Shown here piece by piece: positions 1 to 57,169 of a stretch of 64,000 bases of DNA. Each line of letters starts with the position of its first letter. The first letter of the stretch is position 1. This DNA is from Candidatus Nomurabacteria bacterium. Its GTDB lineage: Bacteria > Patescibacteriota > Minisyncoccia > Phycocordibacterales > UBA5272. Where the stretch lies: the NCBI GenBank assembly GCA_040376695.1, contig JBEIQD010000003.1, positions 1,789 to 65,788 on the forward strand, written 5' to 3'. The notes beneath the pieces were generated by a model. The model was not told the DNA's origin, ran no database searches, and worked only from the letters and a program-made list of their open reading frames with translations. The position numbers and the translations under genes are program-made.

Positions 1-1164
1 AAAGTCTGAAAGAAGAGGTGGTTCTAATTTTGTGAAATCAACGTCACCGTTAATATCTTTAAGAGCATATGTTTCAGTTATTGCTTGATCAATAATGGCA
101 TCTTCTTCTGGAGTAAGGCCTCCAAGCATCACACGGAAAAGTCCAACGAGGTTAACAATGTTTGAACGAAGCACTTCAGACGGCGATTCATCTTCTGTTG
201 GGTGTGGTAAATCGAAAGGATTAATGTGGTGATCGCTTGTAAGGGAAATATCAAAGTATCTTCCGCCAACAGATTCAGCTAGGTATTCGTACTCTCGCTC
301 AGGGTCAATAATGATGACTTCCGTATCAAACATAAGGGTACGAAGAATTTCGAGTTTCGTCGTGTAACTCTTACCAGAACCTGATTTTGCGAAAACGATT
401 GAGTTGTAATTCTCAAGAGAGAAGCGATCAAAGAGGATGAGAGATCCATTGTGGCGATTGAGCCCATAGAGAATTCCTTTATCAGATGAAAGATCAAATG
501 ACACGAACGGGAAAAAAGAAGAAAGAGGTGACGTGTTCAGTTTATTTTTTATTTGAAGCTGGTCTTGCCCTAAAGGAAGGGTTGAAAGAAATCCAACGTC
601 TTGTTGAAACAATGCTGGTTTTACATACACTAATCGACTTTCTAGTATATTTTTTATTTCATTTTCAACTTTATCAACCTCAGCCTCTGTTGATCCATAT
701 ATGGAAATATAGAGAGATACCTCAAACATTTTTTCTTGTGCTTGAGTAAGTCCGTCACGCAAATCTTCAAGATCTTTGTACGCAACATCAAGTGTAGGGT
801 CACGAACAAGCCCCTTTTCTTCTCGTGTCATAATCTGACTCTCTACTTCCGCAACCTTTCTTTGAAACTGCTTCATGACATCTCCTGTATCAAGCGGAGT
901 TACGTGAATGGCAACATCAAATACCTTGTCCAAGTTAATGATAGGGCTTAGCCAGTTGTCTGTGAGGAATCGTGGGTATGAAATAACAAAGTACGAACGT
1001 ACAATATTTGTCCCCAAGTTGAGACTTTTTGGCCCAACACCCAAAGCAGAGGGCGCAATGATATCTTTCAGTTGCATTTCTGCCACTTTGTAAACCTGTT
1101 CAGGAAGAATAGGGTTTACGGGCGAGGCTGCTTGTTTCTTGTTTATAAAATCGAATATTCCCAT
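1..1164 (-). CDS. VirB4/TraE-family conjugative (type IV secretion) ATPase, central and C-terminal part; 3' end runs off the window (partial)
   Basis: Minus-strand frame open from the ATG at 1164-1162 to the window edge. Translation MGIFDFINKK...RSYFVISYPRFLTDNWL... carries Walker A FAKSGSGKSYTTK and the VIIIDPEREYEYL motif typical of VirB4/AAA_10 ATPases. Not in the ORF track because no stop lies inside the window. Confidence 0.6.
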   Translation of the reverse strand, partial: MGIFDFINKKQAASPVNPILPEQVYKVAEMQLKDIIAPSALGVGPKSLNLGTNIVRSYFVISYPRFLTDNWLSPIINLDKVFDVAIHVTPLDTGDVMKQFQRKVAEVESQIMTREEKGLVRDPTLDVAYKDLEDLRDGLTQAQEKMFEVSLYISIYGSTEAEVDKVENEIKNILESRLVYVKPALFQQDVGFLSTLPLGQDQLQIKNKLNTSPLSSFFPFVSFDLSSDKGILYGLNRHNGSLILFDRFSLENYNSIVFAKSGSGKSYTTKLEILRTLMFDTEVIIIDPEREYEYLAESVGGRYFDISLTSDHHINPFDLPHPTEDESPSEVLRSNIVNLVGLFRVMLGGLTPEEDAIIDQAITETYALKDINGDVDFTKLEPPLLSDF

Positions 1165-1172
1165 ATGTAGTA

Positions 1173-1841
1173 TTAATTATCGTTTATCTTAGGTGCTCCT
1201 CTGTCCTGCTCCCCTGGGTTAAAAAGTTTATAGAAGAGTTCAACCACTTCCTCTGTTCCAAGTTTTTGAGCACGTAATCCAAAACGATTAAGTCCTTGCA
1301 TAACTGTGGCGACTCTCTGTTCAAGCTGTATACGTGCGGCATCAAATGACCCCTGTTCTCCACCAGTAGAAGAGTTAGCTAAACCAAACGATAAGAATTT
1401 ATTCGCTTGATTTTGAGTATTAGTTTGAGCGGGTAAATATGGAATCACGATGAAGAAATGTTTTGTCATAATATTTGTTTCTTCTGTAAACTTTGTGATA
1501 AAGCCCATGTATTCATGGATTTGAATCTTAAGAAGATCTTCCTTCACTTCCCCTGATCTCTGTTGAAGAAGATCCATATACGGCTTGATGTTGAGTCTTC
1601 TTGATTGAATAAAAAATTGAATCGGAAAATCAAGTGAGTTGAGGAGATTCTGAAACTGAAGAAGAATAGCCTGTTGCTCATCCTCGCTCTTCAAAGAGAG
1701 GTTAAGAGACGAAGTAATAAGAACAGCGCGAAGCTCTCCATTCTTAAGCACAACAACACCATCACGCACGCGTTCGATTGGTACAAATTGTTGAGTTGCT
1801 ATTCCAGAAGCCATATCTTGAAGTATACAGCATAGAAACAA
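1173..1841 (-). CDS. VirB4 N-terminal domain fragment (PrgJ/TraE-like), separate ORF in a different frame from the ATPase part
   Basis: 222-aa ORF containing ...VVVLKNGELRAVLITSSLNLSLKSEDEQQAILLQFQNLLNSLDFPIQFFIQSRRLNIKPYMD, which resembles the conserved N-terminus of Gram-positive conjugative VirB4 ATPases. TAA at 1175-1173 is followed 8 nt later by the ATG of the ATPase ORF, in another frame. Confidence 0.5.
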   Translation of the reverse strand: MFLCCILQDMASGIATQQFVPIERVRDGVVVLKNGELRAVLITSSLNLSLKSEDEQQAILLQFQNLLNSLDFPIQFFIQSRRLNIKPYMDLLQQRSGEVKEDLLKIQIHEYMGFITKFTEETNIMTKHFFIVIPYLPAQTNTQNQANKFLSFGLANSSTGGEQGSFDAARIQLEQRVATVMQGLNRFGLRAQKLGTEEVVELFYKLFNPGEQDRGAPKINDN

Positions 1842-1850
1842 GACCGAAGC

Positions 1851-2294
1851 TTATTCCTGTGAGTTACGATCAAGAACATCGAGACCAAGAGACACTTCGT
1901 GAAGCCTATCTTTGTTTACTTTTGAAACGGTTACTTCTTTTTCTGCGTCAGCAACTACCTTTTCTATGTTGGAAGTGTTTTCGGTTTGTTCTTTCGGTTG
2001 TTTCCATGTATAAATTTTGCCCCCTGTATAGTAAGCAAAAGCGCTTTCAAGTAAATCTCCAAAAGGTCTATTGTTGATTTTTACAAAAGCGAGCGAAAGA
2101 AAAAGTCCAGAAACCAAGAGAATAAGAACAACCGCAATAATTTTTATTGGAATAAATGTCCAAATAATAAAAGAAAATCCACCAGCGCCTAGGATATACC
2201 CAAATTGTTTAAGGGTAAGGGGTCCGACAACCTTGTCTTCCATGTCGATAAATTGAGGAACTCGGAATTGCATAGAGTAAAGTATATCACGCAC
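1851..2294 (-). CDS. PrgI/VirB3-like small T4SS membrane protein
   Basis: 147 aa with QFRVPQFIDMEDKVVGPLTLKQFGYILGAGGFSFIIW and a hydrophobic helix. Sits immediately upstream of VirB4, the usual position of PrgI-family (VirB3-analog) genes. Confidence 0.5.
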   Translation of the reverse strand: MRDILYSMQFRVPQFIDMEDKVVGPLTLKQFGYILGAGGFSFIIWTFIPIKIIAVVLILLVSGLFLSLAFVKINNRPFGDLLESAFAYYTGGKIYTWKQPKEQTENTSNIEKVVADAEKEVTVSKVNKDRLHEVSLGLDVLDRNSQE

Positions 2295-2301
2295 TGAGTA
2301 G

Positions 2302-3069
2302 CTACTCAGAAGCCTCTCTGTAAGGGTCGATATTGTATTTTGTCGGGGCCTTACTATAGGAAGCCGTTTGAGCCTCTGGGGTTACTGCTTTGTCGTCCCC
2401 CGCGTGAGGCATAAACTCCTGAAGGGCAATGTTTGAGTCTAAAGCCCTATCATCTTTTGCTTCTATTCCAGAGATTTGTTCCTGGATTTTCTTAAGTCGT
2501 TCAGAAACTTCTTCATCGTTTGGAATTGTGTCTAGTATTTGTAACTGTTCTAGAAGTTGAGAGCGGGATCCCGCTACCACTGTTGCTTTTTTAGCCGCAG
2601 CGGGCGCCGGACTTACTGTTGCCGGAATTGATGGTTGGTTTTGATTTAAAACAGCCACTGGCTCTCGTTTCGTTGTATCAAGGATCTCTTTTCGTAGCTC
2701 ATCTGGAGATCTCCCTTCTTGGAACGTTAGAGTGACCATATCTTTAGGAGATTTACCTAAAATGCTAATACGAGCTTTTTCTAGAATGGTTTTGTCCAAA
2801 TCAGCAGCAAGCTTATAAGCCTCTTCCTCAGAAAGGCCCAATATATCAACAATTGCCCGCACCACATCCGTTGGCTTTAAAGCGCCAATAAGAATAAACG
2901 AAATAATGTTTGAAAGCGCGATGTAGGAGCTTACGGGTATTTTATACACCTTGCCTAAGATCGCTGTTGCATTGTTCACTTCGTCACCATGAATAAGCTC
3001 CTGAATATCAGCCGGAGATTGATCAAATAAATCATCCTGATTTGTTGCTATGTATGACGGGTTACTCAT
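2302..3069 (-). CDS. hypothetical protein in the T4SS-like locus
   Basis: 255-aa ORF packed between the VirB6-like and PrgI-like genes with 2-8 nt spacing; no recognised motif. Confidence 0.5.
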   Translation of the reverse strand: MSNPSYIATNQDDLFDQSPADIQELIHGDEVNNATAILGKVYKIPVSSYIALSNIISFILIGALKPTDVVRAIVDILGLSEEEAYKLAADLDKTILEKARISILGKSPKDMVTLTFQEGRSPDELRKEILDTTKREPVAVLNQNQPSIPATVSPAPAAAKKATVVAGSRSQLLEQLQILDTIPNDEEVSERLKKIQEQISGIEAKDDRALDSNIALQEFMPHAGDDKAVTPEAQTASYSKAPTKYNIDPYREASE

Positions 3070-3071
3070 AA

Positions 3072-5552
3072 TTATGCTGCGGTTGTGTAAGGTGTCTCAT
3101 TCGATGCTGATCTGGTTGAGTTAGACGGAGAAGGTTTTGGTGCTGTAGCGGTTGACGCGCCTGCGCCACTTTCATTATTTTTGTTACTTGTGTCTATGTT
3201 TCTTTGTGCTTCTGCTTGTTTTATTTTTCTTCTTTCTGCAAAAGATTCTTTTTGCATGTCAACGACAGAAGAAGATTCTTTTGATGAGGCAAAGTTTTTT
3301 TGCATTTCTGCAACTTCTGCTGCACTCATCATTTTTGCTTCTTCCGTTGGGTTCATTCGTTGTTCATCTGCAATAGCTTCAGCTTTTGTTGCTTGTAGCT
3401 GGGTTCCACCCCCTTCGTTTCTGATTCGCTCCTGAACATTAGCAGGAAGAGATTCGAGATACTCTTCTTTGTCTCCATCCTTTTTCCTTCCGTATGCTTT
3501 AACAAGCTTGTCCTCATCCTCTTTGATACTGTCTGCCGTTTTTTGCGCATCACTCTTAGCACCCCCAAGGAGTACTGCTCGTTGACCTGTGGATCCAAGC
3601 GAACCCGTTTTCTGTGCTATATATCCTTCACGAGCACTTGCATCTTTAATGCTTCCGTACTTCTTCTTCATTGCAAGATCTCTTGCCTCAAAATCTTTGT
3701 CATATGTTTGTGTTGTCCCCTTACCCATTCCCATACCAGCACTTGCCATACCGCGGTTTACCATTCCAATATTACGAGTATCAAATGTACTTTGTGCTAA
3801 GGAATTTGTGAGTGAATATAAACCCCTTCCTGTTCGTGAGCCCTGCATTTTATCCATCATCCCACTATCACGTAACCGCGCCGCAGCGAGACCAACACTT
3901 CCCCGGGCAAGCAATCCTGCGCCCCCTGAGGCAACCCCAAGTCCAAATCCACCTACTTTACCTATTGCGTTAGTTGCCATCTCGCCCGCCGTGCCCGCCG
4001 CCGCTTTAGTTACTTTAAGCATGATGTGGAGCATAACAATCATCATAAGAATATTAAAAAATATTTTTACATTTTCAGCCCCTCCACTTGCAAGTGGTCC
4101 TCCTGCCGTCTGGAACACATCCATAAACTTAAGAGTGAGAGCAAGCATAATCATGAACACCGGAGCCACAATGAGCTGTTCAAAAAACATCTTACGCATC
4201 TTCACTGCGACATCTCCTAGTTTTGGTACAACGGCATCAACTAAAAGAAGCGGAGAAGCAACAATAAGAAAAGCAAATACGGCAGCTCTCATAACGAGAA
4301 GCGCTGTCGCCATAAAGAGAACATACGCAGCATAGAGCGCAAAAACCACAGCAACCAATGCCCCTGGGGTGCTATTAATTCGTGAGGTAAAACCAGAACC
4401 AGTGTCGGTTTTTGTTGCGCTTACGAATAGATCGGTCAATCCAAGTCTATTCATAATAAGAGATCCAGCGGTGTTTCCTCCAGAGGTTGTTATGTCACTT
4501 CCAAAGTTACTTCCCAAAGCTTCACTCCCTACCGCACTTGAATAAATATTTAAGGAAACAATATTTGAGACATCAACAAGCGCTCTTGTTACGGGATATG
4601 AAAAGTTTACAAAAAGAGCGAATATCGCAAGCCACCCAATATATTTACCAAATGTGTCTTCACGTCCGATGATATACATGAACCCAAGATACAGTCCCGC
4701 AAACACTACAACGAGAGAAACTATTTGGCGAATAATTACCCATATAGGATAGAGTGATGTTGGTGACCATTTAGCAAAATCAAGAACACTTATCTGAATT
4801 GCAAAGTTGAGCATGTTAGCCGCAAGCCAAGCAAGAAAACCAGCAATCTGTAGGAACGTATTCTTAACCAACCATGCAAATCCAGCGTCAATACAATCTA
4901 CGATTGAAGCATTGAAAAGCGAAGTACATTTTTTTGTATCGTTAGCGGCCACTATCCCTGAAGAAGACTCACCCGCAGTGGAAACTGCTGTGGCGTTGCC
5001 GAGTGAGTTTGCTTCTGCACTACCGGCGGTGATTGTGCCAGCTTCAATTTGTTTAGCTTGTGTGAGGAGCTGTGCCCACTGAGTTGTGTATGTTCTAATA
5101 ATGCCGTTTGCTCGGGGTTCTTGTTTTTCTTGCACTGTTAAAGCTCCCCAGCCCGACTGAAACTTAGCTTCTGCGGCAACATTTGCTTGAATGGCCGCTT
5201 TTACAGGACTGAGTCCTACTCCCTGTGACTGAGCGAAGCTTGCTGTATACGTTGCCTTCTCGTCCTGAAATACTTTTATGTTCTTCGCTAAGGTTGCCGA
5301 TATTGTTGCTTTGTTTGGTTCATTGGTCAGAGCGTCTACCGCTTTCTTTGTGTCCTCGAGAGATTTTATGGTTGCATCCAAAATAGCGATACCTTGGTTA
5401 GAAAAATAAGAATACGACCCTTGAGTGTTTGCAATAGCGCCAGATTCAGTTTGTCTATCAATTCCTTGAGCAAAAACTGTAGAAGGTTGAGCTACCCAAA
5501 GGATACTCAAAACTAGGACGATACTACACGCAAAAAAACCAAGTCGTTTCAT
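3072..5552 (-). CDS. large polytopic membrane protein, VirB6/TrbL/PrgH-like candidate T4SS channel component
   Basis: 826 aa. N-terminal signal peptide MKRLGFFACSIVLVLSILWVAQPSTVFA, a central block of at least six hydrophobic helices, and a charged K/E-rich C-terminal tail. Position within the T4SS-like operon. Confidence 0.45.
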   Translation of the reverse strand: MKRLGFFACSIVLVLSILWVAQPSTVFAQGIDRQTESGAIANTQGSYSYFSNQGIAILDATIKSLEDTKKAVDALTNEPNKATISATLAKNIKVFQDEKATYTASFAQSQGVGLSPVKAAIQANVAAEAKFQSGWGALTVQEKQEPRANGIIRTYTTQWAQLLTQAKQIEAGTITAGSAEANSLGNATAVSTAGESSSGIVAANDTKKCTSLFNASIVDCIDAGFAWLVKNTFLQIAGFLAWLAANMLNFAIQISVLDFAKWSPTSLYPIWVIIRQIVSLVVVFAGLYLGFMYIIGREDTFGKYIGWLAIFALFVNFSYPVTRALVDVSNIVSLNIYSSAVGSEALGSNFGSDITTSGGNTAGSLIMNRLGLTDLFVSATKTDTGSGFTSRINSTPGALVAVVFALYAAYVLFMATALLVMRAAVFAFLIVASPLLLVDAVVPKLGDVAVKMRKMFFEQLIVAPVFMIMLALTLKFMDVFQTAGGPLASGGAENVKIFFNILMMIVMLHIMLKVTKAAAGTAGEMATNAIGKVGGFGLGVASGGAGLLARGSVGLAAARLRDSGMMDKMQGSRTGRGLYSLTNSLAQSTFDTRNIGMVNRGMASAGMGMGKGTTQTYDKDFEARDLAMKKKYGSIKDASAREGYIAQKTGSLGSTGQRAVLLGGAKSDAQKTADSIKEDEDKLVKAYGRKKDGDKEEYLESLPANVQERIRNEGGGTQLQATKAEAIADEQRMNPTEEAKMMSAAEVAEMQKNFASSKESSSVVDMQKESFAERRKIKQAEAQRNIDTSNKNNESGAGASTATAPKPSPSNSTRSASNETPYTTAA

Positions 5553-5668: not shown

Positions 5669-7360
5669 TTAGAACGCACCACCGTCACCTCCCCCTGATT
5701 GATTATTTTGTTGGTAGCTTTGACGTATCTGAGCGCATTCCGTGGTGAGTCTAGGAATTGATCCCACAGAACTGTTGTCCTGCTTGATTGTGCCATTAAA
5801 TCTTACGAAATCAGCCTGTCTTTTTGAAGCTGCTGAAAGACTTGGAAGTCCTTGGTCTTCAACTTTTTTCTGATAATCACTAAATAGTGTTGTTATTTCC
5901 CCCGTCGATTTTGATGCAGCAACCGCAACAAGTGTGTCATTGATGAGGGTTCGCGTTGTGTTGATACCGTTAAGGTTTTTAGTTGACTCTGCCTGTGTAC
6001 TTTGAATAACAGCTAGTTTATTTGAAGTGAAGCTAAGCGCTGAAACAACGCGCGGATCGTTTTTTAGATTAAAATCTTCACCCAGCTTTTCATAACATAC
6101 TTGAATGGTTTGTATGCTATTTTGATACCCAGCCAGCTCAGCCAGGAAGCTTCGCTCAGTGCCTTCAAGTGAGTTTAAAGAAGTGAGGTGGGCTTGAAGT
6201 GGGGTTTGTACTGTACTTGCAGTTTCTGTTTGCTTGCTTGGAGTATCAAGATCTTGAATTTGATTTAAACTTGCTTGATTACTGTTCCCTGGAGAAATAT
6301 CAGATAGCTGTCGTGTAGAAGCCACAACCTGTAAAATTGAACTCAAACTGTTGAATATACCAGAACCAAAAGTACTTTCCAGTTTTTTTAATGGAGCGTT
6401 TAAAGCTTCCTGGAAGGCGCTACTCAAAGCACTTCCTGTATTTGTTATGGTTTCTACTCTACAAGGAACGTTTGCGATATCAGATCCGTCTGCTGTTGCT
6501 GGTTGGTCACACTTTGTGGCACTCGCGATACCTCCACCCCTGTTCAAGTCAGCTTCTGCTGCCTTTTCTTTTTTAGCTTTATCTTCCGCTATGGCAACTT
6601 GCGTTCGAACGCTTCGATTATATTCATTATCACCAAAACTTACCGCCAAAAGACTATCAGTTCCAGCTATATCTGGTCGTTGCTTACCAACTGCTTCCAG
6701 TTTTCTTGCAAGCGGAATGTTGATGGTTGGATTCCCTACACATAATGAGTTAAAAAGATCTTGTTTTCTGTTTTGGTATGCCTCTAAATCATACGTCCCG
6801 TCACTTTTCATTACATCATTCTTCGCTACGTTTGAAAGCGAAGCATCTTTACAGAGATTGTTTTGAACAATATTTGGAATTGAGGAGTTGCCCAAAGACC
6901 CCAAGACACTGGTGAGGTTAGAAGATCCTCTATAGCTATTAATGACACTTCCTAGAATACTTGAACTATATGTTCCATTCTGCTGAGAAATATCTCCAAT
7001 ATTAACCCTAACAGAATTTAGTCCTTTATTTTGAACCCATTGTTCAGGGTTTTGAACAAGAAGAGAGTTTCCACCAAGAGAACCTGTTATTAAGTTAATA
7101 GTGTTTGTTTGCTGTTGAATTTGAGCAAGTGCGATAAGGCCATTTCCTAATGGGTCAAGAACAGTATCCTGCAAAAAGCCGGTATAGGCATAAAACTCAG
7201 TAGCCACAGCTGAGGCGGCACTTATAAAGTCTTCCGCTAACTGAAGATATCTAGTAATTTCAGCTTGTGGGTCGAATACCACATATTGAGCATGAGTTGT
7301 TTGAACTGTTGAAAACAAAACAGTGAAGAAAAATGCTGATGTTATAAAAAAGTGTTTCAT
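5669..7360 (-). CDS. secreted hypothetical protein (signal peptide), Ser/Asn/Gln-rich
   Basis: Track ORF 5669..7393. The internal start MKHFFITSAFFFTVLFSTVQTTHA at 7360 gives a canonical signal peptide and avoids overlap with the upstream gene. Confidence 0.5.
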   Translation of the reverse strand: MKHFFITSAFFFTVLFSTVQTTHAQYVVFDPQAEITRYLQLAEDFISAASAVATEFYAYTGFLQDTVLDPLGNGLIALAQIQQQTNTINLITGSLGGNSLLVQNPEQWVQNKGLNSVRVNIGDISQQNGTYSSSILGSVINSYRGSSNLTSVLGSLGNSSIPNIVQNNLCKDASLSNVAKNDVMKSDGTYDLEAYQNRKQDLFNSLCVGNPTINIPLARKLEAVGKQRPDIAGTDSLLAVSFGDNEYNRSVRTQVAIAEDKAKKEKAAEADLNRGGGIASATKCDQPATADGSDIANVPCRVETITNTGSALSSAFQEALNAPLKKLESTFGSGIFNSLSSILQVVASTRQLSDISPGNSNQASLNQIQDLDTPSKQTETASTVQTPLQAHLTSLNSLEGTERSFLAELAGYQNSIQTIQVCYEKLGEDFNLKNDPRVVSALSFTSNKLAVIQSTQAESTKNLNGINTTRTLINDTLVAVAASKSTGEITTLFSDYQKKVEDQGLPSLSAASKRQADFVRFNGTIKQDNSSVGSIPRLTTECAQIRQSYQQNNQSGGGDGGAF

Positions 7361-7364
7361 AGAC

Positions 7365-8324
7365 TTAGTGTGTAATTCCATTATATCCCACAATATAAAT
7401 ATACCCAGGTTCAGTTGAGGTGAATGTTACATTTTTAAGATTAAAATAATCCCCCAACATAGGGTAAATTCTAATTGTTGCGGCAGTTACCTCTTGATAT
7501 TTTTTAAGAGCAACGGTTGCGCGAATAGCATCAGTGTTTGCGGCAGAAAGGTTTGCTAGAGTGTTACTGTACTCAGAAACTCTGTTAAGTGTTGTAAGGT
7601 GGTAAGGAAGTGCTGATTTCGGAACTTCTAATGCTAAAAGTTTCTTCGTTGCAGCTGCCACCTTTTCAGCATCAGCGGCTAAAGGAAGAAGGTTGCCCTC
7701 GTCTGCTGTTTGAAGATACCCGCTGACACTCACTAAATCTCTGGCAACAGTTTCTTTTGTAATAAGATTTTTAAGTATTGTTGCCACAGCGTTTCCGTAT
7801 TTCTTGATTGCTACTTTGTCATCAGTGGTAAGTTTTACGTCTGAAGACGCGTACACAGTTGCTGATACTTTTTGCCCCTCTTCGCTAAGGAGTTGTCCAA
7901 AAACTTCCTGTTTACTAGCCTCATCAACTATCCCGCTTTGCTGTAAAGCTGTCGAAGCAATGTAAGCATTTTTTGTAAATGACGCTGTTATATTATTTGG
8001 GTCATTCAGTATTGCAATCCCTTTCGCATCTGTTTCAAACGTTGCATTAGTGGCTTCTGGAGAAAGAGAAAGTGAGCTTGCGATCAGTTCACCCCAACTG
8101 ATTGCCCCATCATTATTAGTATCTGTTGCAAGATTTTCTGGTTGAGCGAGGTTTCCTAGATTCAGAGGTTCATATCGTCTCGTTTGCGGCTCTATTCCAA
8201 ACCAAGAGGCTGGAAGTAGAGATGTCCCAATCGTTAAAATGAAAACAATACCTAACAACAAGAGAGGTGTATTACTTTTTTCTTGCGAAATGAGGCTTTT
8301 AGATGTGGAGATGTTCATATTCAT
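7365..8324 (-). CDS. N-terminally membrane-anchored hypothetical protein
   Basis: Track ORF 7365..8525. The internal start MNMNISTSKSLISQEKSNTPLLLLGIVFILTIGTSLL (TM helix) at 8324 avoids overlap with the divergent hydroxylase gene. Confidence 0.45.
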   Translation of the reverse strand: MNMNISTSKSLISQEKSNTPLLLLGIVFILTIGTSLLPASWFGIEPQTRRYEPLNLGNLAQPENLATDTNNDGAISWGELIASSLSLSPEATNATFETDAKGIAILNDPNNITASFTKNAYIASTALQQSGIVDEASKQEVFGQLLSEEGQKVSATVYASSDVKLTTDDKVAIKKYGNAVATILKNLITKETVARDLVSVSGYLQTADEGNLLPLAADAEKVAAATKKLLALEVPKSALPYHLTTLNRVSEYSNTLANLSAANTDAIRATVALKKYQEVTAATIRIYPMLGDYFNLKNVTFTSTEPGYIYIVGYNGITH

Positions 8325-8411: not shown

Positions 8412-9164
8412 ATGATTATCCTTATTATCCTCTTTGTGGTTGTTGTTCTTGAATTTTCCTACAGTGCCTATGTTAGAGATGGAATGTATTCCAGAGAAAG
8501 CACACAAGTAAATATCTTTACTCAAGCTTTTGGTGTTTTGAAAGATGTTTTGATACCAAGTTTAGGAGTTATAGGTATTATTGGCTTCGTAAACGGAATA
8601 GTTCCGCATGTTCTAGAAATTCCCTTCACCTTATTTTCTTTCATTACTTGTTTACTTCTCATGGATTTTCTTTACTATCTTTTCCACCGAGCTAATCATT
8701 ATTTTGGATTACTGTGGATGTTTCATTTTGTTCACCACAGCGACACGAAGCTGAATCTAAGTGTTGGATTTAGATCTTCATGGTTTGAAATGGTTGGTCT
8801 ATTTGCAACATACTCCCTGCTTTTGGCGATAGGGTTCCCTCTATCTTTATTTTTGGCAGCATTCACAGTTACATCAACGTATCAATTTTTAACACACAGT
8901 AGGTATATACAAATACCAACTTATTTAGAATATGTTTTTGTAACACCACATTTCCACGCGACCCATCATGATAAAAGAATACAATATCAGAACAGTAATT
9001 TCGGAGGAGTTTTTAGCTTGTGGGATAGATTTTTTTCTACGTATGCAAAAGATGTAGAAGTTTCATCTTTTGGTATTGAAGGATATAAACAAAATAATGT
9101 TATTAAAATCCACACTGATCCGATTCTGCAGTATGTGCGCAGGAAGTTTAGAGCGCTGAAATAG
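8412..9164 (+). CDS. fatty acid hydroxylase / sterol desaturase superfamily membrane protein
   Basis: Three histidine boxes, HRANH, HFVHH and HFHATHH, within multi-TM hydrophobic stretches. Confidence 0.6.
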   Translation: MIILIILFVVVVLEFSYSAYVRDGMYSRESTQVNIFTQAFGVLKDVLIPSLGVIGIIGFVNGIVPHVLEIPFTLFSFITCLLLMDFLYYLFHRANHYFGLLWMFHFVHHSDTKLNLSVGFRSSWFEMVGLFATYSLLLAIGFPLSLFLAAFTVTSTYQFLTHSRYIQIPTYLEYVFVTPHFHATHHDKRIQYQNSNFGGVFSLWDRFFSTYAKDVEVSSFGIEGYKQNNVIKIHTDPILQYVRRKFRALK

Positions 9165-9906
9165 TAAGCCAGACTTCTAAAGAAACATCCTCTGCTCTTG
9201 TTTTTTCGTCAATATTATTTTTAAGAAAAACTTCTTGCCAATTAGTCGTAGGGATTTTCTCCTTCAAATTAGATAGCAGGTATTTTCTTTTGTGTGCAAA
9301 GCCAGCTTTAACAATGTTAAAAAACATTTGCTCGTGGTACTGATTTTTAAAGTTTTTGCGAGATATATTTTTAATCTGTAATACAGCTGAATCAACAGTA
9401 GGGATAGGATTAAAGCTTCCCCTAGATACTTTATACACAAGCTTTGGTTCCCCGTAAGCTTTCACAGAAAGCGAAAGAATGGATTCCTTCCCTTCTTTGG
9501 CACACACACGCACCGCAACTTCTTTTTGAACAAGCACAACCATAGTAGTTGGTTGGTTAACATGAGAAAGATATCGCTCGAGAATGGCTCCTGTTATATA
9601 GTATGGAATATTTGCGATTAATTTATACCCCGCACTTTCTGGGTTATAAGTAAGAGCATCCCCTTCTATAAGGGTGAAGTTTTTGTTCGTGCTAAATTTT
9701 TCAGTAAGTAGCGGGATAAGATCAGTGTCCTTTTCAAGAGCAGTAACGTGTGCACCTGTTTCAATAAGAGATTGAGTAAGGAATCCTTTCCCTGGACCAA
9801 TTTCAAGAATTGAATCTGACGGAGTCACTTCCCCTGCTTCCACAATTGCTATACGTGCTGGGATTGAGGTTAGAAAGTTTTGACCAAGAGCCTTTTTAGG
9901 TTTCAT
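9148..9906 (-). CDS. rsmA: 16S rRNA (adenine1518-N6/adenine1519-N6)-dimethyltransferase
   Basis: N-terminal LGQNFL motif and the SAM-binding LEIGPGKGFLT motif; 252 aa. Confidence 0.9.
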   Translation of the reverse strand: MKPKKALGQNFLTSIPARIAIVEAGEVTPSDSILEIGPGKGFLTQSLIETGAHVTALEKDTDLIPLLTEKFSTNKNFTLIEGDALTYNPESAGYKLIANIPYYITGAILERYLSHVNQPTTMVVLVQKEVAVRVCAKEGKESILSLSVKAYGEPKLVYKVSRGSFNPIPTVDSAVLQIKNISRKNFKNQYHEQMFFNIVKAGFAHKRKYLLSNLKEKIPTTNWQEVFLKNNIDEKTRAEDVSLEVWLTISAL

Positions 9907-15734: not shown

Positions 15735-15768
15735 AACAAAAGCACCTGATCAGGTGCTTTTGTTTTAT
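15735..15768. terminator. bidirectional intrinsic terminator (34-nt perfect palindrome) between the M23 peptidase gene and comM
   Basis: aaaacaaaagcacctgatcaggtgcttttgtttt, with A/T runs on both sides. Confidence 0.6.
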
Positions 15769-17321
15769 AATCTATTTTCGTACAGTTTTGGTCTGTATTG
15801 AAATGCCTCTAAGATATCAGCTTCTACTATATGTTCTGTTTGTTTTAAATCTGCAATGGTTCGAGCAAGTCGTAGCACTCGATGGTACGCTCGTGGTGAG
15901 AGAGCATACGAGGTTGCTAATTTTTTCATAAGGGTAAGTACTGGAGGAGTGAGGATAACAAATGTATCTATGTCTTTTGCTTTCATGTCTTTATTTTTAG
16001 TGATGTTCATAGCACCTCCTTTTTCAAAACGAGCTTTTGCAAACGTGCGTGCTTTGTGAACTTGTAAAACTATCGATTCGCTCTCTTCTCCAATGCGCGC
16101 ATGAGAAAGTGTATCGTAATCAACGTGTTGGACAGGAACCCAAATATCAATACGGTCCATAATTGGACCAGAAAGTTTTCGAGCGTATCTGTCTATATCA
16201 GACGGTTTACAGACGCAACGTTTTAATTTACTCCCCATATATCCGCACGGACACGGGTTCATTGAAGCGATGAGTGTACATGATGCTGGAAAAAGAAATG
16301 TTCCTTTTGCGCGAGATACGGAAATAAAACCTTCCTCAAGAGGTTCTCGTAAAGACTCTATTACGCGTTTATCAAACTCAGGAAATTCATCTAAGAAAAG
16401 CACGCCGTGATGAGCAAGTGTCACCTCCCCGGGGCGTGGGTCTGCTCCTCCACCAACAAGTGATACATATGACGATGTGTGATGAGGACTCCTAAAAGGA
16501 GGGTGCGTAATGACGGAAGTTTTTGCGTGAGCAACAGAATGTATACGAGTAACGTCAAGCGCCTCAGTGCGCGATAATGGTGGAAGAATTCCAGTGAACG
16601 CTCGAGCAAGCATGGTCTTTCCTGTTCCTGGTGGTCCGTAGAGAGCGATGTTGTGTCCCCCGGCAGCCGCAATAAGGAGTGCTCGTTTTGCAGTTTCTTG
16701 TCCGCGAATATCTTTGAAATCTAAATATGAATCAGGGCGAGAGTATGCAATATCAGTAAATGGTGCAGGAGTGAGCGTGATTATGTCCTCTACTCCTTCT
16801 ATGGTTCCGCCTAAATGAAGAACAAGATCACGAAGATTTTTACACCCATACACGGTAAGTCCCTGTACCAGAGAAGCTTCTTCGGTATTTGCTTCAGGAA
16901 CATAGAGGGCCTGCGCTCCTTCTTTCTTTGCGCACTCCGCGATAGAAAGAACTCCCATCATTGGAAGAATTTCTCCCGTCAATGAAAGTTCACCAACAAA
17001 CCATCCAACGTCTGTTGGGATGGATACTTGTTTTGATGCAATGAGATACGTCAACGCAACAGGAACATCAAAATGAGAACCTTCTTTTTTAATATTTGCA
17101 GGTGAAAGAGAAACAGTTACTTTATGGTTTTCTGTTTTTGGATTTCGTAACCTAGTGTTTTTTAGTGCTGCATTGATTCTATCTTTGCTCTCATCAATGG
17201 CTTTATCAGGAAGTCCTACAATGGAAAATGAATAGAGGCCGTTAGATACATCAACCTCAACCGTAATTGGTTCAGCGTGTAATCCAACGATGTGTGCACT
17301 TTTTAAACTGGCGACACTCAT
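15765..17321 (-). CDS. comM: Mg-chelatase-like AAA+ protein YifB/ComM
   Basis: 518 aa with Lon-like N-terminal domain, Walker A GPPGTGKTMLA and the C-terminal Mg-chelatase subunit ChlI domain. Confidence 0.85.
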   Translation of the reverse strand: MSVASLKSAHIVGLHAEPITVEVDVSNGLYSFSIVGLPDKAIDESKDRINAALKNTRLRNPKTENHKVTVSLSPANIKKEGSHFDVPVALTYLIASKQVSIPTDVGWFVGELSLTGEILPMMGVLSIAECAKKEGAQALYVPEANTEEASLVQGLTVYGCKNLRDLVLHLGGTIEGVEDIITLTPAPFTDIAYSRPDSYLDFKDIRGQETAKRALLIAAAGGHNIALYGPPGTGKTMLARAFTGILPPLSRTEALDVTRIHSVAHAKTSVITHPPFRSPHHTSSYVSLVGGGADPRPGEVTLAHHGVLFLDEFPEFDKRVIESLREPLEEGFISVSRAKGTFLFPASCTLIASMNPCPCGYMGSKLKRCVCKPSDIDRYARKLSGPIMDRIDIWVPVQHVDYDTLSHARIGEESESIVLQVHKARTFAKARFEKGGAMNITKNKDMKAKDIDTFVILTPPVLTLMKKLATSYALSPRAYHRVLRLARTIADLKQTEHIVEADILEAFQYRPKLYENRL

Positions 17322-18861: not shown

Positions 18862-19125
18862 TTACTTCAAACCGAGTTTTGTAACGAGAGCAGTGTATCG
18901 CTTCTTGTTATTTGCCTCGAGATACTTCAAATGTGTGCGTCGGTCAGCAACCATCTGAATAAGTCCACGACGTGAGTGATTGTCCTTCTTGTGTGTCTTA
19001 AGGTGGTTAGTGAGTTCAACGATCTTCTTTGAAAGAAGTGATACCTGAACATCGGCAGAGCCAGTGTCTGTATCGTGAATCTGGGCGTTTTTAATGGCCG
19101 TAGCCTTTTTTCGTGCAGTAAGCAT
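18862..19125 (-). CDS. rpsO: 30S ribosomal protein S15
   Basis: 87 aa; GSADVQVSLLSKKI...LKTHKKDNHSRRGL...RR..LKYL is a canonical S15. Confidence 0.9.
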   Translation of the reverse strand: MLTARKKATAIKNAQIHDTDTGSADVQVSLLSKKIVELTNHLKTHKKDNHSRRGLIQMVADRRTHLKYLEANNKKRYTALVTKLGLK

Positions 19126-19249
19126 ATTGATTAACTATAGGATGTATTGTATCACACATTTCAAACAATTGCAAGTGCTCCCCTGTTGCGCTGCCTTATC
19201 CCCAATACTATTGTGCGACACTAGCCTCTATCTGCTATATACTCATATA

Positions 19250-20209
19250 ATGCAAAGCTTATCGAGCCTAAAAGCTGACTTCCTTCAATACATAGAGATT
19301 GAAAAGGGTCGCTCCCCTCTTACGGTAAGGAATTACGACCATTATCTCAGTCGATTCCTAGATTTCATCAAAGTTGAGTCCCCATCCGACATCACAGAAT
19401 CAATGATGCGTGAATATCGTGTATATTTGAACCGTTTACCAGCAAAACCTCCCAAAAAAGGTAGTAAAAAGAGCGTTGTTACAGAAACATTAGATAAAAA
19501 GACCCAGAATTATCACCTAATTTCACTTCGTGCGTTCCTGAAGTATATGCGTAAGCAGGGTTTCCAAGGGTATGATCCTGAACGAATAGAGCTTGCGAAG
19601 ACTTCTTCCCGAGAACTCGATCTTATTTCTGAAAAGGAATTACAGAATCTTATGGCCGCCCCAGATACTTCTACTATCTTAGGTCTTCGTGATCGAGCAA
19701 TGCTTGAGCTTTTCTTTTCAACAGGTCTTCGCGTTTCAGAGCTTTGTTCGCTTGATCGTGACACTGATTTAAAGACAGGAGAAATCTCTATTCGTGGAAA
19801 AGGTGGAAAGATACGAGTTGTGTTCGTCTCTGGCGCTGCACTACTTGCTGTAAAGAAATATATTGAAGCACGTGTTGATATTGATGAAGCAATGTTTATT
19901 GATCACTCCCCTCGCGCACATGCTCGTATTGTTCGTGAGGAGTCTATCCGCCTTACCCCTCGTTCAGTTGAAAGAGTGGTTGAGAAATATGCAATGATTG
20001 CTGGTATTGCAAAAAAGTGTACCCCCCACGTGATTCGTCACTCGTTTGCTACCGATCTTCTCTATAATGGTGCTGATCTTCGTACGGTTCAGCTGATGTT
20101 GGGACATGCTTCTATTGCCACAACACAAATTTACACGAACGTAACTAATAAATTCCTTCGTGATCAGTTTGAGAAATTCCATTCAAAACGAGATTCAAAG
20201 AAGGAGTAG
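19250..20209 (+). CDS. xerC: tyrosine site-specific recombinase XerC/XerD family
   Basis: The C-terminal catalytic region HVIRHSFATDLLYNGADLRTVQLMLGHASIATTQIYTNV holds the R-H-R-Y active-site residues. The internal start MQSLSSLKADFL at 19250 is preferred over the track start 19094, which overlaps rpsO. Confidence 0.85.
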   Translation: MQSLSSLKADFLQYIEIEKGRSPLTVRNYDHYLSRFLDFIKVESPSDITESMMREYRVYLNRLPAKPPKKGSKKSVVTETLDKKTQNYHLISLRAFLKYMRKQGFQGYDPERIELAKTSSRELDLISEKELQNLMAAPDTSTILGLRDRAMLELFFSTGLRVSELCSLDRDTDLKTGEISIRGKGGKIRVVFVSGAALLAVKKYIEARVDIDEAMFIDHSPRAHARIVREESIRLTPRSVERVVEKYAMIAGIAKKCTPHVIRHSFATDLLYNGADLRTVQLMLGHASIATTQIYTNVTNKFLRDQFEKFHSKRDSKKE

Positions 20210-39655: not shown

Positions 39656-39670
39656 TGGTATACTTTCCCT

Positions 39671-40201: not shown

Positions 40202-41722
40202 ATGCACCTAAAAACAATTATTTTTGTACTAGGGGTTGCCGCAGGAATTACTATTGGATTTGTTTCTTCGTTTGCGACTGAAATGATAGTTGCAGTACTA
40301 GTGCTCGCTGCAGTTCAGACAAGTATAGTGTTCGTGAGTAAATATTGGAGAAGAGAGTCGCATGTCAAAGACATGCGACTCTCTTTGTTTACAATATTGT
40401 TCTGTGTTGGAGTTGTGCTTGGCGCTGTACGTACGCAATTTGTTGAAGAAAAAATTCCATACGCATGTGAGTCATCATGTGTCTTTGACGCAACAATTAT
40501 TTCATTCCCTGAAACAAAAGATGCCTATCAAGTTTTTACTGTGCGACCAGTTGAAGCGGAACGCGTAACATATGATGTACAAATTCGTGCACCGCTCTAT
40601 CCACGTTTCAAAATAGGGGAGACAGTGAGTGTCCAAGGTAAATCACTTTTGCCAAGTGTGATTATGCCACATAACGGAGAAAAAAGTTTTGATTATATTT
40701 CGTATCTTCATACAAAAAATATTGGAAGCGAGATGATGTTTCCAAGTATAGAAGTAGTGGATAGTGAAGCTCACTCGGTGCAAGAATATTTAGGAAGATG
40801 GAAAGAAGATTTAATTATGCGATTAGGTTTGTACGTTTCTTCCCCAGCGTCTGCACTTTCAAGCGGAATGCTCTTTGGAGATTCTTCTATGTCGAAAGAA
40901 CTTATTCAAACATTTCGCACCTCAGGACTTTCACACATTGTTGTTCTCTCTGGTTTTAACATTGCAATTGTTATCACGTCCATTTTATTTGTGTTCATGT
41001 TTTTGCCACTTGTTATGCGTATTGCACTCGCTTCATTTTTTGTCATTATGTTTGTGATGATGGTAGGAGGGGAGGCAAGTGTGATGAGAGCAACTGCGAT
41101 GGCGTTCATCGGATTACTTGCGACACTTCTTGGTCGAGCGTATGTTGCGCGCCAAGCACTCATCATTTCTTTCCTTGCAATCATTCTGTACGAACCACAA
41201 GCACTACGTGCGGATGCCTCTCTTCATCTTTCATTTCTCGCAACCGCAGGAATTGTCTATGCGAGTGCTCCACTAGAAAAGATTCTACAAAAGTATATGA
41301 AGAATAAATATATGCTTTCACTTTTCACAACAACTCTCGCTGCGTATTTCGCCACACTCCCGTATGTCATGTATACATTTGGAACAGTCTCACTGTATGC
41401 GCTCATTGCAAACGTACTCGTACTTCCACTGATTCCAATCACCATGCTATTGTCTTTTATAGTTGTTTGCATGTCCTATATGTCTGAAACTTTGTCGCTT
41501 GGTTTTGGGTTCGTGGATACTCTAGTGAGTAACATAATTCTTTTTGTTGCACGTATTGTGGAAGCCTTACCCTTTTCAAGTAGTAGTTTTTCTATCTCAT
41601 TCACAGGTATGTGTGTCATGTATCTAGGCGTTTCATTACTTGTTATATATCTACATAACAAAAAGAATGAAACGATTGAAACAACAACGGAGGGATATCT
41701 TACAGATATAATTAAATACTAA
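40202..41722 (+). CDS. comEC: ComEC/Rec2 DNA-uptake channel, N-terminal and Competence-domain part (no lactamase domain)
   Basis: 506 aa, polytopic; the SGLSHIVVLSGFNIAIV Competence-domain signature; ends before any MBL domain. Confidence 0.7.
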   Translation: MHLKTIIFVLGVAAGITIGFVSSFATEMIVAVLVLAAVQTSIVFVSKYWRRESHVKDMRLSLFTILFCVGVVLGAVRTQFVEEKIPYACESSCVFDATIISFPETKDAYQVFTVRPVEAERVTYDVQIRAPLYPRFKIGETVSVQGKSLLPSVIMPHNGEKSFDYISYLHTKNIGSEMMFPSIEVVDSEAHSVQEYLGRWKEDLIMRLGLYVSSPASALSSGMLFGDSSMSKELIQTFRTSGLSHIVVLSGFNIAIVITSILFVFMFLPLVMRIALASFFVIMFVMMVGGEASVMRATAMAFIGLLATLLGRAYVARQALIISFLAIILYEPQALRADASLHLSFLATAGIVYASAPLEKILQKYMKNKYMLSLFTTTLAAYFATLPYVMYTFGTVSLYALIANVLVLPLIPITMLLSFIVVCMSYMSETLSLGFGFVDTLVSNIILFVARIVEALPFSSSSFSISFTGMCVMYLGVSLLVIYLHNKKNETIETTTEGYLTDIIKY

Positions 41723-57055: not shown

Positions 57056-57169
57056 TTGTATCCCCATTTTATCCTTTCTTCATAGGCACTATTCTCGTAT
57101 ACTGAACGTATGCTTTCGGGTCATTTTTCCATGTTTTATAAACTCTTTTCTTTACACAAGAGGGCGGTA

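What the first reader, a model, noticed from the sequence alone, without database searches (positions are those of the whole stretch)
1..1841. VirB4 conjugative ATPase encoded as two ORFs in different frames (split gene, frameshift or pseudogene)
The 222-aa ORF (1173-1841) carries the conserved VirB4 N-terminus (LKSEDEQQAILLQFQNLLNSLDFPIQFFIQSRRLNIKPY). It ends with TAA, and 8 nt later an ATG in another reading frame opens the rest of VirB4 (RSYFVISYPRF..., Walker A GSGKSYT, IIDPEREY) running to the window edge. Joined, the two parts have normal VirB4 length and order. So this is a naturally split VirB4, a frameshift or sequencing error, a programmed frameshift, or an inactivated T4SS.
Basis: seen in the sequence. 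Interest (0 to 1): 0.65.

Follow-up and report, generated by a model that had tools for sequence, protein, structure and literature searches.

The report
Natural two-gene VirB4 secretion ATPase
The VirB4 gene that looks broken is the normal, conserved layout of type IV secretion loci in Patescibacteria (CPR bacteria): a small TrsD-like protein equal to the VirB4 N-terminus, then a separate ATPase gene, as already described in the literature.

Summary
On the minus strand, a 213-aa ORF (ATG 1814 to TAA 1173) matches the first ~160 positions of VirB4 models. Eight nt later, an ATG at 1164 in another frame opens the rest of VirB4, which has a Walker A motif and runs off the window.

It is not a frameshift, an error or a pseudogene. 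All 120 closest database homologues are stand-alone proteins of 201-224 aa. Of 150 cluster representatives, 149 are not fused. All 77 evaluable species-level genome loci keep a stop codon and a conserved ATG with an MG(L/I)FDF start.

The spacers range from 0 to 461 nt and put the second gene in all three relative frames. Two spacers hold an inserted ORF. That excludes recoding.

dN/dS is about 0.02 for the N-part and 0.01 for the ATPase at dS > 1, so both genes are under strong purifying selection. Complete Bacillota plasmids have the same PrgI, N-part, ATPase layout.

The N-part model matches only TrwK/VirB4 in the PDB. A 2025 paper already reports TrsD, a VirB4 N-terminus homologue, as the most abundant T4SS component of Patescibacteria, mostly next to virB4.

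Verdict: an ordinary, already known stable split, of low interest.

The parts
1173..1814 (-). trsD-like gene: a stand-alone 213-aa protein homologous to the N-terminal sub-domain of VirB4 (Pfam PF26593 TraC-like in the close homologues). Stop TAA at 1175-1173.
   Evidence: Translation. NCBIfam hits to CD1110-VirB4 positions 1-161 and to TrsD/TraD NF041427. 120 of 120 homologues are 201-224 aa. AlphaFold model with pLDDT 82 whose only significant PDB matches are TrwK/VirB4. dN/dS 0.02 against L005.
1165..1172 (-). 8-nt intercistronic spacer TACTACAT between the TAA and the ATG, with no Shine-Dalgarno sequence and no slippery heptamer.
   Evidence: Sequence. In relatives the spacer is 0-14 nt in 64 of 77 loci, most often 4 nt, and 445 or 461 nt at the extreme. 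Spacer length mod 3 is spread over all three classes, 33/26/18.
1..1164 (-). 5' two-thirds (388 codons) of the virB4 ATPase gene proper. It includes the middle domain and Walker A (KSGSGKSYT) and continues beyond the window edge; the full gene is 605 aa in relatives.
   Evidence: Translation. NCBIfam NF045971 CD1110-family VirB4, 241 bits, positions 183-532. The 99%-identical full-length relative L003 scores 373 bits against a cut-off of 325 and has Walker B LLVVDEAW. dN/dS about 0.01.
1822..1827 (-). TATACT hexamer 7 nt upstream of the trsD-like ATG. It is a candidate -10 box of a leaderless transcript that would cover trsD-like and virB4.
   Evidence: 14 of the 46 TATACT sites in the window lie 6-10 nt upstream of an ATG that opens an ORF of at least 125 aa. 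Its function as a promoter is inferred, not shown.
1851..2273 (-). PrgI family (VirB3-like) small membrane protein, 140 aa from ATG 2273, immediately upstream of the trsD-like gene.
   Evidence: Pfam PF12666 PrgI, E = 3.5e-9. Same position and length in relatives L001-L004. TATACT box at 2286-2281.
2302..3069 (-). 255-aa protein with no family match, conserved in the same position in relatives' T4SS clusters.
   Evidence: No Pfam hit. Syntenic genes of 250-262 aa in L001-L004.
3072..5552 (-). 826-aa protein with many hydrophobic segments. It occupies the position expected for a VirB6-like channel subunit, but that homology was not tested.
   Evidence: Translation. No Pfam hit. Syntenic genes of 818-1036 aa in L001-L004.
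5669..7393 (-). 574-aa protein of unknown family with an N-terminal hydrophobic segment, the upstream member of the conserved cluster.
   Evidence: A syntenic 566-aa gene in L003 and L004.

Best explanation
Window 1-1841 (minus strand) holds two intact, independently translated genes of a chromosomal Patescibacteria (Paceibacteria-like) type IV secretion locus of the monoderm MPF-FATA kind. The first is a 213-aa TrsD-like protein, which is the detached N-terminal sub-domain of VirB4. The second is the remaining roughly 605-aa VirB4 ATPase: a middle domain plus a RecA-like motor with Walker A and B.

The split lies in the variable linker between the two sub-domains. It is a stable, ancient, selected arrangement, not damage.

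Inferred mechanism. The two genes are co-transcribed, probably on a leaderless mRNA that starts at the trsD-like ATG. The ATPase cistron, which begins 8 nt after the stop and has no Shine-Dalgarno sequence, is translated by its own initiation or by termination-reinitiation. The two polypeptides then reassemble non-covalently into a VirB4-equivalent unit. In that unit the TrsD-like piece plays the role of the VirB4 N-terminus, docking the hexameric motor to PrgI/VirB3 and the membrane channel.

Shown here: gene integrity, conservation of the split, homology, fold and purifying selection. Inferred: co-transcription, translational coupling, and physical reassembly and docking.
For: Colinearity: on the 752-position CD1110 VirB4 model, the N-part covers positions 1-161 and the C-part covers 183-532. 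The full-length relative covers 183-733 and passes the curated cut-off, 373 against 325 bits.

Fold: the AlphaFold2 model of the N-part (pLDDT 82.3) has 14 significant PDB matches. All are R388 TrwK/VirB4, with E from 3.5e-5 to 1.2e-3 and TM 0.52-0.59; the next hit has E = 0.07.

Stable split:
- All 120 best homologues (73-99% identity) are 201-224 aa.
- Of 150 representatives of 50%-identity clusters (35-93% identity over the matched stretch), 149 are not fused. The longer ones (280-443 aa) carry N-terminal extensions or low-complexity Pro/Gln/Thr-rich C-terminal tails, not ATPase sequence.
- All 77 evaluable loci from species-representative genomes have a stop codon followed by an ATG with a conserved MG(L/I)FDF start, and none is fused.

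Independence of frame:
- Spacers of 0-461 nt fall in all three mod-3 classes (33/26/18).
- The window has 8 nt, while its 97-98% identical relatives have 4 nt.
- Two loci, L044 and L051, have an extra ORF between the two genes.
- In L059 the trsD-like gene is not next to virB4 at all.

Selection, against L005: the N-part has dN 0.022 and dS 1.10, and the ATPase has dN 0.010 and dS 1.15. Third-position differences are 38-39%, against 1-5% at first and second positions.

Not a metagenome artefact: complete plasmids of cultured Geobacillus and Pontibacillus carry PrgI, then an N-part homologue (274 aa in Pontibacillus, 318 aa in Geobacillus), then a 621-636 aa VirB4-like ATPase.

Literature: PMC12102498 reports TrsD, a remote homologue of the VirB4 N-terminal portion, as the most abundant T4SS component in Patescibacteria. 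It found 2,272 homologues, 1,664 of them associated with virB4, and the homologue is essential in Ca. Southlakia epibionticum.

Start context: the genome shows no Shine-Dalgarno use, 5 of 44 starts against an 11% background. The absence of an SD at the junction is therefore normal for this organism.
Against: - No expression, protein or interaction data exist for this locus. Reassembly of the two polypeptides and the docking role are extrapolated from the R388 VirB4 structures and from homology.
- The match to the curated TrsD/TraD NCBIfam model is far below its cut-off, 28.8 against 200 bits. 'TrsD-like' here means remote homology, not subfamily membership.
- The local Pfam scan gave no hit for the N-part, although precomputed PF26593 hits are listed for all close homologues.
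- The direction of evolution is not resolved: fission of a fused VirB4, or an ancestrally separate gene that was fused elsewhere.
- One fused homologue exists (P0206, 797 aa).
- The 3' third of the ATPase gene lies outside the window, so its integrity here is assumed from relatives.
Confidence: 0.93

Rival explanations
1. A sequencing or assembly indel artificially broke a single VirB4 ORF.
For: The two parts lie in different frames only 8 nt apart, and the source is probably a metagenome assembly.
Against: There is no homopolymer at the junction. The same stop and restart occurs in independent assemblies from ENA, NCBI and JGI (L001-L005), in 77 of 77 evaluable species-level genomes, and in finished plasmids of cultured Bacillota. 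The downstream ATG and the MG(L/I)FDF N-terminus are conserved.
Confidence: 0.01
2. A recently inactivated VirB4 (pseudogene) in a decaying T4SS.
For: An interrupted reading frame is the classical sign of a pseudogene.
Against: dN/dS is about 0.02 for the N-part and 0.01 for the C-part at saturating dS > 1. The Walker A motif is intact. All neighbouring cluster genes (PrgI and the 255-, 826- and 574-aa genes) are intact and syntenic with relatives. The arrangement is conserved down to about 50% identity.
Confidence: 0.01
3. Programmed ribosomal frameshifting or stop-codon bypass fuses the two ORFs into one VirB4 polypeptide.
For: The short spacer and the frame change could in principle suit recoding.
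Against: There is no slippery heptamer before the TAA. The required shift would differ between close relatives, since the spacer is 8 nt here and 4 nt at 97-98% identity. Across 77 loci the spacers fall in all three frame classes (33/26/18) and reach 461 nt with an inserted ORF. A conserved ATG opens the second ORF in every locus.
Confidence: 0.01
4. The two genes were never one. The TrsD-like protein is an ancestrally separate T4SS subunit, and single-chain VirB4s (CD1110, TrwK and others) arose by fusion, so 'split VirB4' has the history backwards. The present-day function is the same as in the best explanation.
For: The two-gene form is found both in Patescibacteria and in Bacillota plasmids, and in the pGO1 subclass according to PMC12102498. 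Fused forms are rare within this family, 1 of 150 representatives.
Against: Most VirB4s across the T4SS classes are single chains that include this N-terminal region. For example, the TIGR00929 model aligns from position 18 in the fused P0206, and TrwK matches the fold. No rooted phylogeny was made here.
Confidence: 0.15

Closest known systems
TrsD homologue + VirB4 of the Patescibacteria T4SS (Quinonero-Coronel et al. 2025, Microb Genom, PMC12102498; the Ca. Southlakia epibionticum T4SS of Wang et al. 2023, as cited there)
   Same: The phylum-level lineage is the same: closest loci are Paceibacterota, Nomurabacteria and Parcubacteria MAGs. The cluster content is the same: PrgI/VirB3, TrsD-like and VirB4. 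KsgA lies nearby in the chromosome, and the paper lists KsgA as frequent near virB4.
   Different: Nothing substantive differs. The paper describes TrsD as a component with remote homology to the VirB4 N-terminus. It does not analyse the junction, the frames or selection as was done here.
TrsD / TrsE (TraD / TraE) of staphylococcal conjugative plasmids pGO1 and pSK41; NCBIfam NF041427 TrsD/TraD family
   Same: A protein of about 200 aa homologous to the VirB4 N-terminus, encoded as a separate gene in a monoderm MPF-FATA T4SS (PMC12102498).
   Different: The match is only remote: 28.8 bits against a family cut-off of 200, E = 9e-7. The staphylococcal systems are plasmid-borne conjugation machines with a relaxase. 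This locus is chromosomal and lies among housekeeping genes.
Single-chain VirB4 ATPases: the CD1110 family (CTn2, NF045971) and TrwK of R388 (PDB 7O41-7O43, 8RTB, 8RTD)
   Same: The sequence is colinear over the whole model when the two ORFs are joined. The N-part model matches TrwK and nothing else significant in the PDB. The Walker A and B motifs are present.
   Different: Those proteins are one polypeptide. Here the first ~210 residues form a separate protein.
PrgI, N-part homologue and VirB4 clusters on Bacillota plasmids (Geobacillus subterraneus pGspE55-1; Pontibacillus sp. ALD_SL1 plasmid)
   Same: The gene order and the split point are identical, and the ATPase matches CD1110 model positions 183 onward.
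   Different: The N-part genes are longer (274 aa in Pontibacillus, 318 aa in Geobacillus) and overlap the ATPase gene by 11-14 nt instead of being spaced. Identity to the window protein is 29-32%.
VirB3-VirB4 fusions in some MPF-T systems (mentioned in PMC4027160 and PMC12102498)
   Same: They show the same principle: domain boundaries at the membrane-proximal end of the VirB4 module are evolutionarily plastic.
   Different: The event is the opposite one, a fusion rather than a separation, and it occurs at a different boundary.

Membership tests
VirB4 family T4SS ATPase (NCBIfam NF045971 CD1110 family / TIGR00929) | Significant colinear match to the family model, above the curated cut-off | tested here: met
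   The window fragment scores 241 bits, below the 325 cut-off only because 217 codons lie off the window. The 99%-identical full-length relative L003 scores 373 bits, positions 183-733 of 752.
VirB4 family T4SS ATPase (NCBIfam NF045971 CD1110 family / TIGR00929) | Walker A and Walker B NTPase motifs | tested here: met
   Walker A KSGSGKSYT is in the window. Walker B LLVVDEAW is seen only in the relative L003, because that part lies beyond the window edge.
VirB4 family T4SS ATPase (NCBIfam NF045971 CD1110 family / TIGR00929) | N-terminal domain and ATPase domain in one polypeptide | tested here: not met
   A TAA at 1175-1173 separates model positions 1-161 from 183 onward. The same holds in 77 of 77 relatives.
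VirB4 family T4SS ATPase (NCBIfam NF045971 CD1110 family / TIGR00929) | Encoded in a T4SS cluster with a VirB3/PrgI-like gene | tested here: met
   PF12666 PrgI lies immediately upstream, and the clusters in L001-L004 are syntenic.
TrsD/TraD family conjugative transfer protein (NCBIfam NF041427) | Score above the curated family cut-off (200 bits) | tested here: not met
   28.8 bits, E = 9.4e-7, positions 20-142 of 201. This is remote homology only.
TrsD/TraD family conjugative transfer protein (NCBIfam NF041427) | Stand-alone protein of about 200 aa, homologous to the VirB4 N-terminus, in a monoderm-type T4SS | tested here: met
   213 aa. It matches CD1110 positions 1-161, has the TrwK/VirB4 fold, and sits beside PrgI and virB4.
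Pfam PF26593 (TraC-like) | Match to the Pfam model | tested here: inconclusive
   Precomputed PF26593 hits are listed for all 120 close homologues, including one 99% identical. The local Pfam-A scan of the window protein returned no family at E <= 0.01. The model may be absent from the local copy.
Programmed ribosomal frameshift site | Slippery sequence and a frame relation conserved among relatives | tested here: not met
   There is no X XXY YYZ motif before the stop. Spacer lengths fall in all three frame classes, 33/26/18.
Pseudogene | Relaxed selection, or a disruption not shared by relatives | tested here: not met
   dN/dS is 0.02 and 0.01 at dS > 1, and the split is shared by all relatives examined.

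The most novel reading that the evidence does not exclude
The detached N-terminal sub-domain may be more than a cut-off piece of VirB4. It could be a separately dosed, exchangeable adaptor. Three observations fit this: in some lineages it carries long disordered Pro/Gln/Thr-rich tails, it can be unlinked from virB4, and it is the most widespread T4SS component in Patescibacteria. As a free subunit its stoichiometry or its attachment to the motor could be regulated, for example through translational coupling on a leaderless bicistronic mRNA. That would give the essential Patescibacteria T4SS an assembly or gating step that single-chain VirB4 systems lack.
Probability: 0.2. Interest if true: 0.35.

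Novelty: already known. Interest (0 to 1): 0.1.

Why it matters
The main value is for annotation. Two adjacent ORFs in different frames that together equal VirB4 should not be flagged as a frameshift or pseudogene, or merged, in Patescibacteria and some Bacillota T4SS loci.

The natural break point marks a domain boundary that could guide construct design for structural work on the monoderm and Patescibacteria T4SS. That system is reported as essential for epibiotic growth in Saccharibacteria (PMC12102498, citing Wang et al. 2023).

It does not open a new question.

Tried and rejected
- The search for related loci with the 25-sequence alignment A2 failed because no stretch was conserved enough. 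A six-sequence alignment, A3, worked.
- A profile search of PDB sequences with the N-part alignment found nothing at E <= 1. Only the fold comparison linked it to TrwK/VirB4.
- The local Pfam scan gave no family for the N-part.
- Guglielmini et al. 2014 (PMC4027160) is cited by the 2025 paper for the TrsD-VirB4 homology, but its main text does not contain the word TrsD. The statement is therefore cited from PMC12102498 only.
- The 2025 FEMS review (PMC12857230) does not discuss a split VirB4.
- I suspected that the 280-443 aa homologues were contig-truncated fused VirB4s. None matches the ATPase part: most carry low-complexity C-terminal tails and a few carry N-terminal extensions.
- I looked for a Shine-Dalgarno sequence at the junction. 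None is present, but the whole window lacks SD use, so this says nothing about the junction.
- Three of the 80 loci could not be evaluated. L013 ends at the contig edge. In L059 and L078 no virB4 follows within 4 kb.

Full report
**Observation.** The feature lies on the minus strand. The maximal ORF 1173..1841 (TTG start, 222 aa) contains the quoted peptide and ends with TAA at 1175-1173. The eight bases TACTACAT follow at 1172-1165. An ATG at 1164-1162, offset 11 nt and therefore in another frame, opens MGIFDF...RSYFVISYPRF...KSGSGKSYT...IIDPEREY. That frame stays open to base 1, for 388 codons. The first gene most likely starts at the ATG at 1814, giving 213 aa. Its closest homologues are 213 aa, and a TATACT box lies 7 nt upstream.

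**What the two parts are.**
- Against NCBIfam, the 213-aa protein aligns to positions 1-161 of the 752-position CD1110-family VirB4 model. It also aligns weakly to the TrsD/TraD family (28.8 bits, cut-off 200).
- The second ORF aligns to positions 183-532 of the same VirB4 model, up to the window edge.
- The full-length 605-aa gene of a 99%-identical relative (L003) aligns to positions 183-733. It passes the curated cut-off (373 against 325 bits) and has Walker B LLVVDEAW.
- An AlphaFold2 model of the N-part (mean pLDDT 82.3) has 14 significant matches in the PDB, all of them TrwK/VirB4 of plasmid R388. The next hit has E = 0.07.
- The upstream gene is a PrgI family (VirB3-like) protein.

So the two ORFs together equal a monoderm-type VirB4, cut in the linker after its first sub-domain. 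In the one fused homologue found (P0206, 797 aa), that linker is a short variable stretch.

**Is the split an accident?** It is not.
- All 120 best hits to the N-part, from a database of 5.8 billion proteins, are stand-alone proteins of 201-224 aa at 73-99% identity.
- In an exhaustive HMMER scan of 50%-identity cluster representatives, 149 of the best 150 are not fused (35-93% identity over the matched stretch). The 280-443 aa ones carry N-terminal extensions or Pro/Gln/Thr/Ala-rich tails, not ATPase sequence. One representative is fused.
- I fetched 80 loci from species-representative genomes at 48-97% identity. They are labelled Paceibacterota, Nomurabacteria, Parcubacteria, Vogelbacteria and Yonathbacteria, and many carry a 'Saccharibacteria' label.
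- In every one of the 77 evaluable loci, the N-part ORF ends in a stop codon. The ATPase ORF begins with an ATG and a conserved MG(L/I)FDF-type N-terminus. None is fused.
- The spacer is 0-14 nt in 64 loci (most often 4 nt), 22-130 nt in 11, and 445 or 461 nt in two loci where an extra ORF sits between the genes.
- Spacer length mod 3 is distributed 33/26/18, so the ATPase gene occupies all three relative frames. The window itself has 8 nt where its 97-98% identical relatives have 4 nt. No single recoding mechanism could serve these junctions, and there is no slippery heptamer.
- In L059 the PrgI and trsD-like pair is not followed by virB4 at all.

**Selection.** Against L005 the N-part has dN 0.022 and dS 1.10, and the ATPase part has dN 0.010 and dS 1.15. 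At third codon positions 38-39% of sites differ, against 1-5% at first and second positions. More distant pairs show the same pattern. Both genes are under strong purifying selection, and the neighbouring cluster genes are intact and syntenic. This is not a pseudogene and not a decaying T4SS.

**Independent support from finished genomes.** A tblastn search of 72,556 plasmids found N-part homologues at 22-32% identity in 71 records, most of them Bacillota. In Geobacillus subterraneus pGspE55-1 and a Pontibacillus plasmid, the annotated order is a small upstream gene (annotated PrgI family in Geobacillus), then an N-part homologue (318 aa in Geobacillus, 274 aa in Pontibacillus), then a 621-636 aa DUF87 or CD1110-family VirB4-like ATPase. 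The genes overlap by 11-14 nt. The two-gene layout therefore predates or extends beyond Patescibacteria and is not a metagenome artefact.

**Literature.** Quinonero-Coronel et al. 2025 (PMC12102498) surveyed the T4SS of Patescibacteria. [quoted passage not shown] It is otherwise known from the pGO1 subclass of MPF-FATA. They found 2,272 homologues in 2,221 assemblies, 1,664 of them associated with virB4, and note that the homologue in Ca. Southlakia epibionticum is listed as essential. They also note KsgA and origin-proximal genes near virB4. The window has KsgA at 9148-9906, and the fused homologue's locus lies next to rnpA, yidC, dnaA and dnaN. The finding is thus an instance of a published, widespread arrangement.

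**How it most likely works.** Shown: two intact genes, homology and fold of the first to the VirB4 N-terminus, conservation and selection. Inferred from the R388 VirB4 structures and from homology: the TrsD-like protein binds the 605-aa ATPase non-covalently and rebuilds the VirB4 N-terminal module. That module links the hexameric motor to VirB3/PrgI and the membrane channel.

**Expression.** This organism shows no Shine-Dalgarno use. Only 5 of 44 starts have a GGAG, GAGG or AGGA motif, equal to the 11% background. By contrast, 14 of the 46 TATACT hexamers lie 6-10 nt upstream of an ATG that opens a long ORF, including prgI and the trsD-like gene. This suggests leaderless transcripts. virB4 has no such box at the right distance, so it is probably co-transcribed with the trsD-like gene and translated by reinitiation or direct internal initiation. 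This step is inference only.

**Context.** The window is chromosomal. It carries EF-G, EF-Tu, NusA, RNase Y, RecJ, ComEC, CCA-adding enzyme, PGK, UvrD and four tRNAs.

**Verdict.** The feature is already known and of low interest (0.1). What remains open is whether the history is fission or fusion, and how the two polypeptides assemble.

Noticed in passing
whole window, e.g. 2286-2281, 1827-1822, 57098-57103, 17333-17328, 14460-14455, 39659-39664: Genes show no Shine-Dalgarno use: 5 of 44 starts, the same as the 11% background. However, 14 of the 46 TATACT hexamers lie 6-10 nt upstream of an ATG that opens an ORF of at least 125 aa. This looks like -10 boxes of leaderless mRNAs.
   Followed up: partly
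L044 2975-3419 and L051 4640-5100: In two relatives, an extra ORF of about 130 aa is inserted between the trsD-like gene and virB4. From the sequence alone it resembles the four-helix-bundle / 23S rRNA intervening-sequence type of protein; no search was run.
   Followed up: no
L085 544-2937 (GCA_964615945.1): A rare fused version (797 aa, P0206) of the same family follows PrgI. It lies close to rnpA, yidC, dnaA and dnaN, that is, next to the replication origin.
   Followed up: partly
proteins P0139, P0149, P0177, P0178, P0218, P0243 and others (search of protein representatives): About 30 of the 150 cluster representatives of the TrsD-like family are 280-443 aa long. Most of them carry long, low-complexity Pro/Gln/Thr/Ala-rich C-terminal tails of unknown role; a few instead have N-terminal extensions.
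   Followed up: partly
L059 3534-8451: Here PrgI and the trsD-like gene are followed by divergently oriented genes (a 218-aa gene and a 714-aa membrane protein) instead of virB4. The trsD-like gene can therefore be unlinked from the ATPase gene.
   Followed up: partly
window 57110-60622 (+): A 1170-aa protein with two matched stretches to Peptidase_S74 (the intramolecular chaperone of endosialidase and tail-fibre type proteins), preceded by a TATACT box. It is possibly a surface fibre or adhesin.
   Followed up: no
window 40202-41722 (+) and 15765-17321 (-): ComEC (Competence domain) and a ComM/Mg-chelatase-like ATPase are present in the same window as the T4SS. This is relevant to DNA-uptake ideas for Patescibacteria.
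   Followed up: no
L042 (labelled Alphaproteobacteria) and L058 (labelled Flavobacteriaceae): Two short contigs in MAGs assigned to other phyla carry this Patescibacteria-type trsD-like and virB4 pair at 54-66% identity. This is probably binning contamination rather than transfer.
   Followed up: no
window 19094-20209 (+): A tyrosine recombinase (Phage_integrase plus SAM-like domain) lies about 12 kb from the T4SS cluster. Whether it is XerC/D or marks a mobile element was not examined.
   Followed up: no
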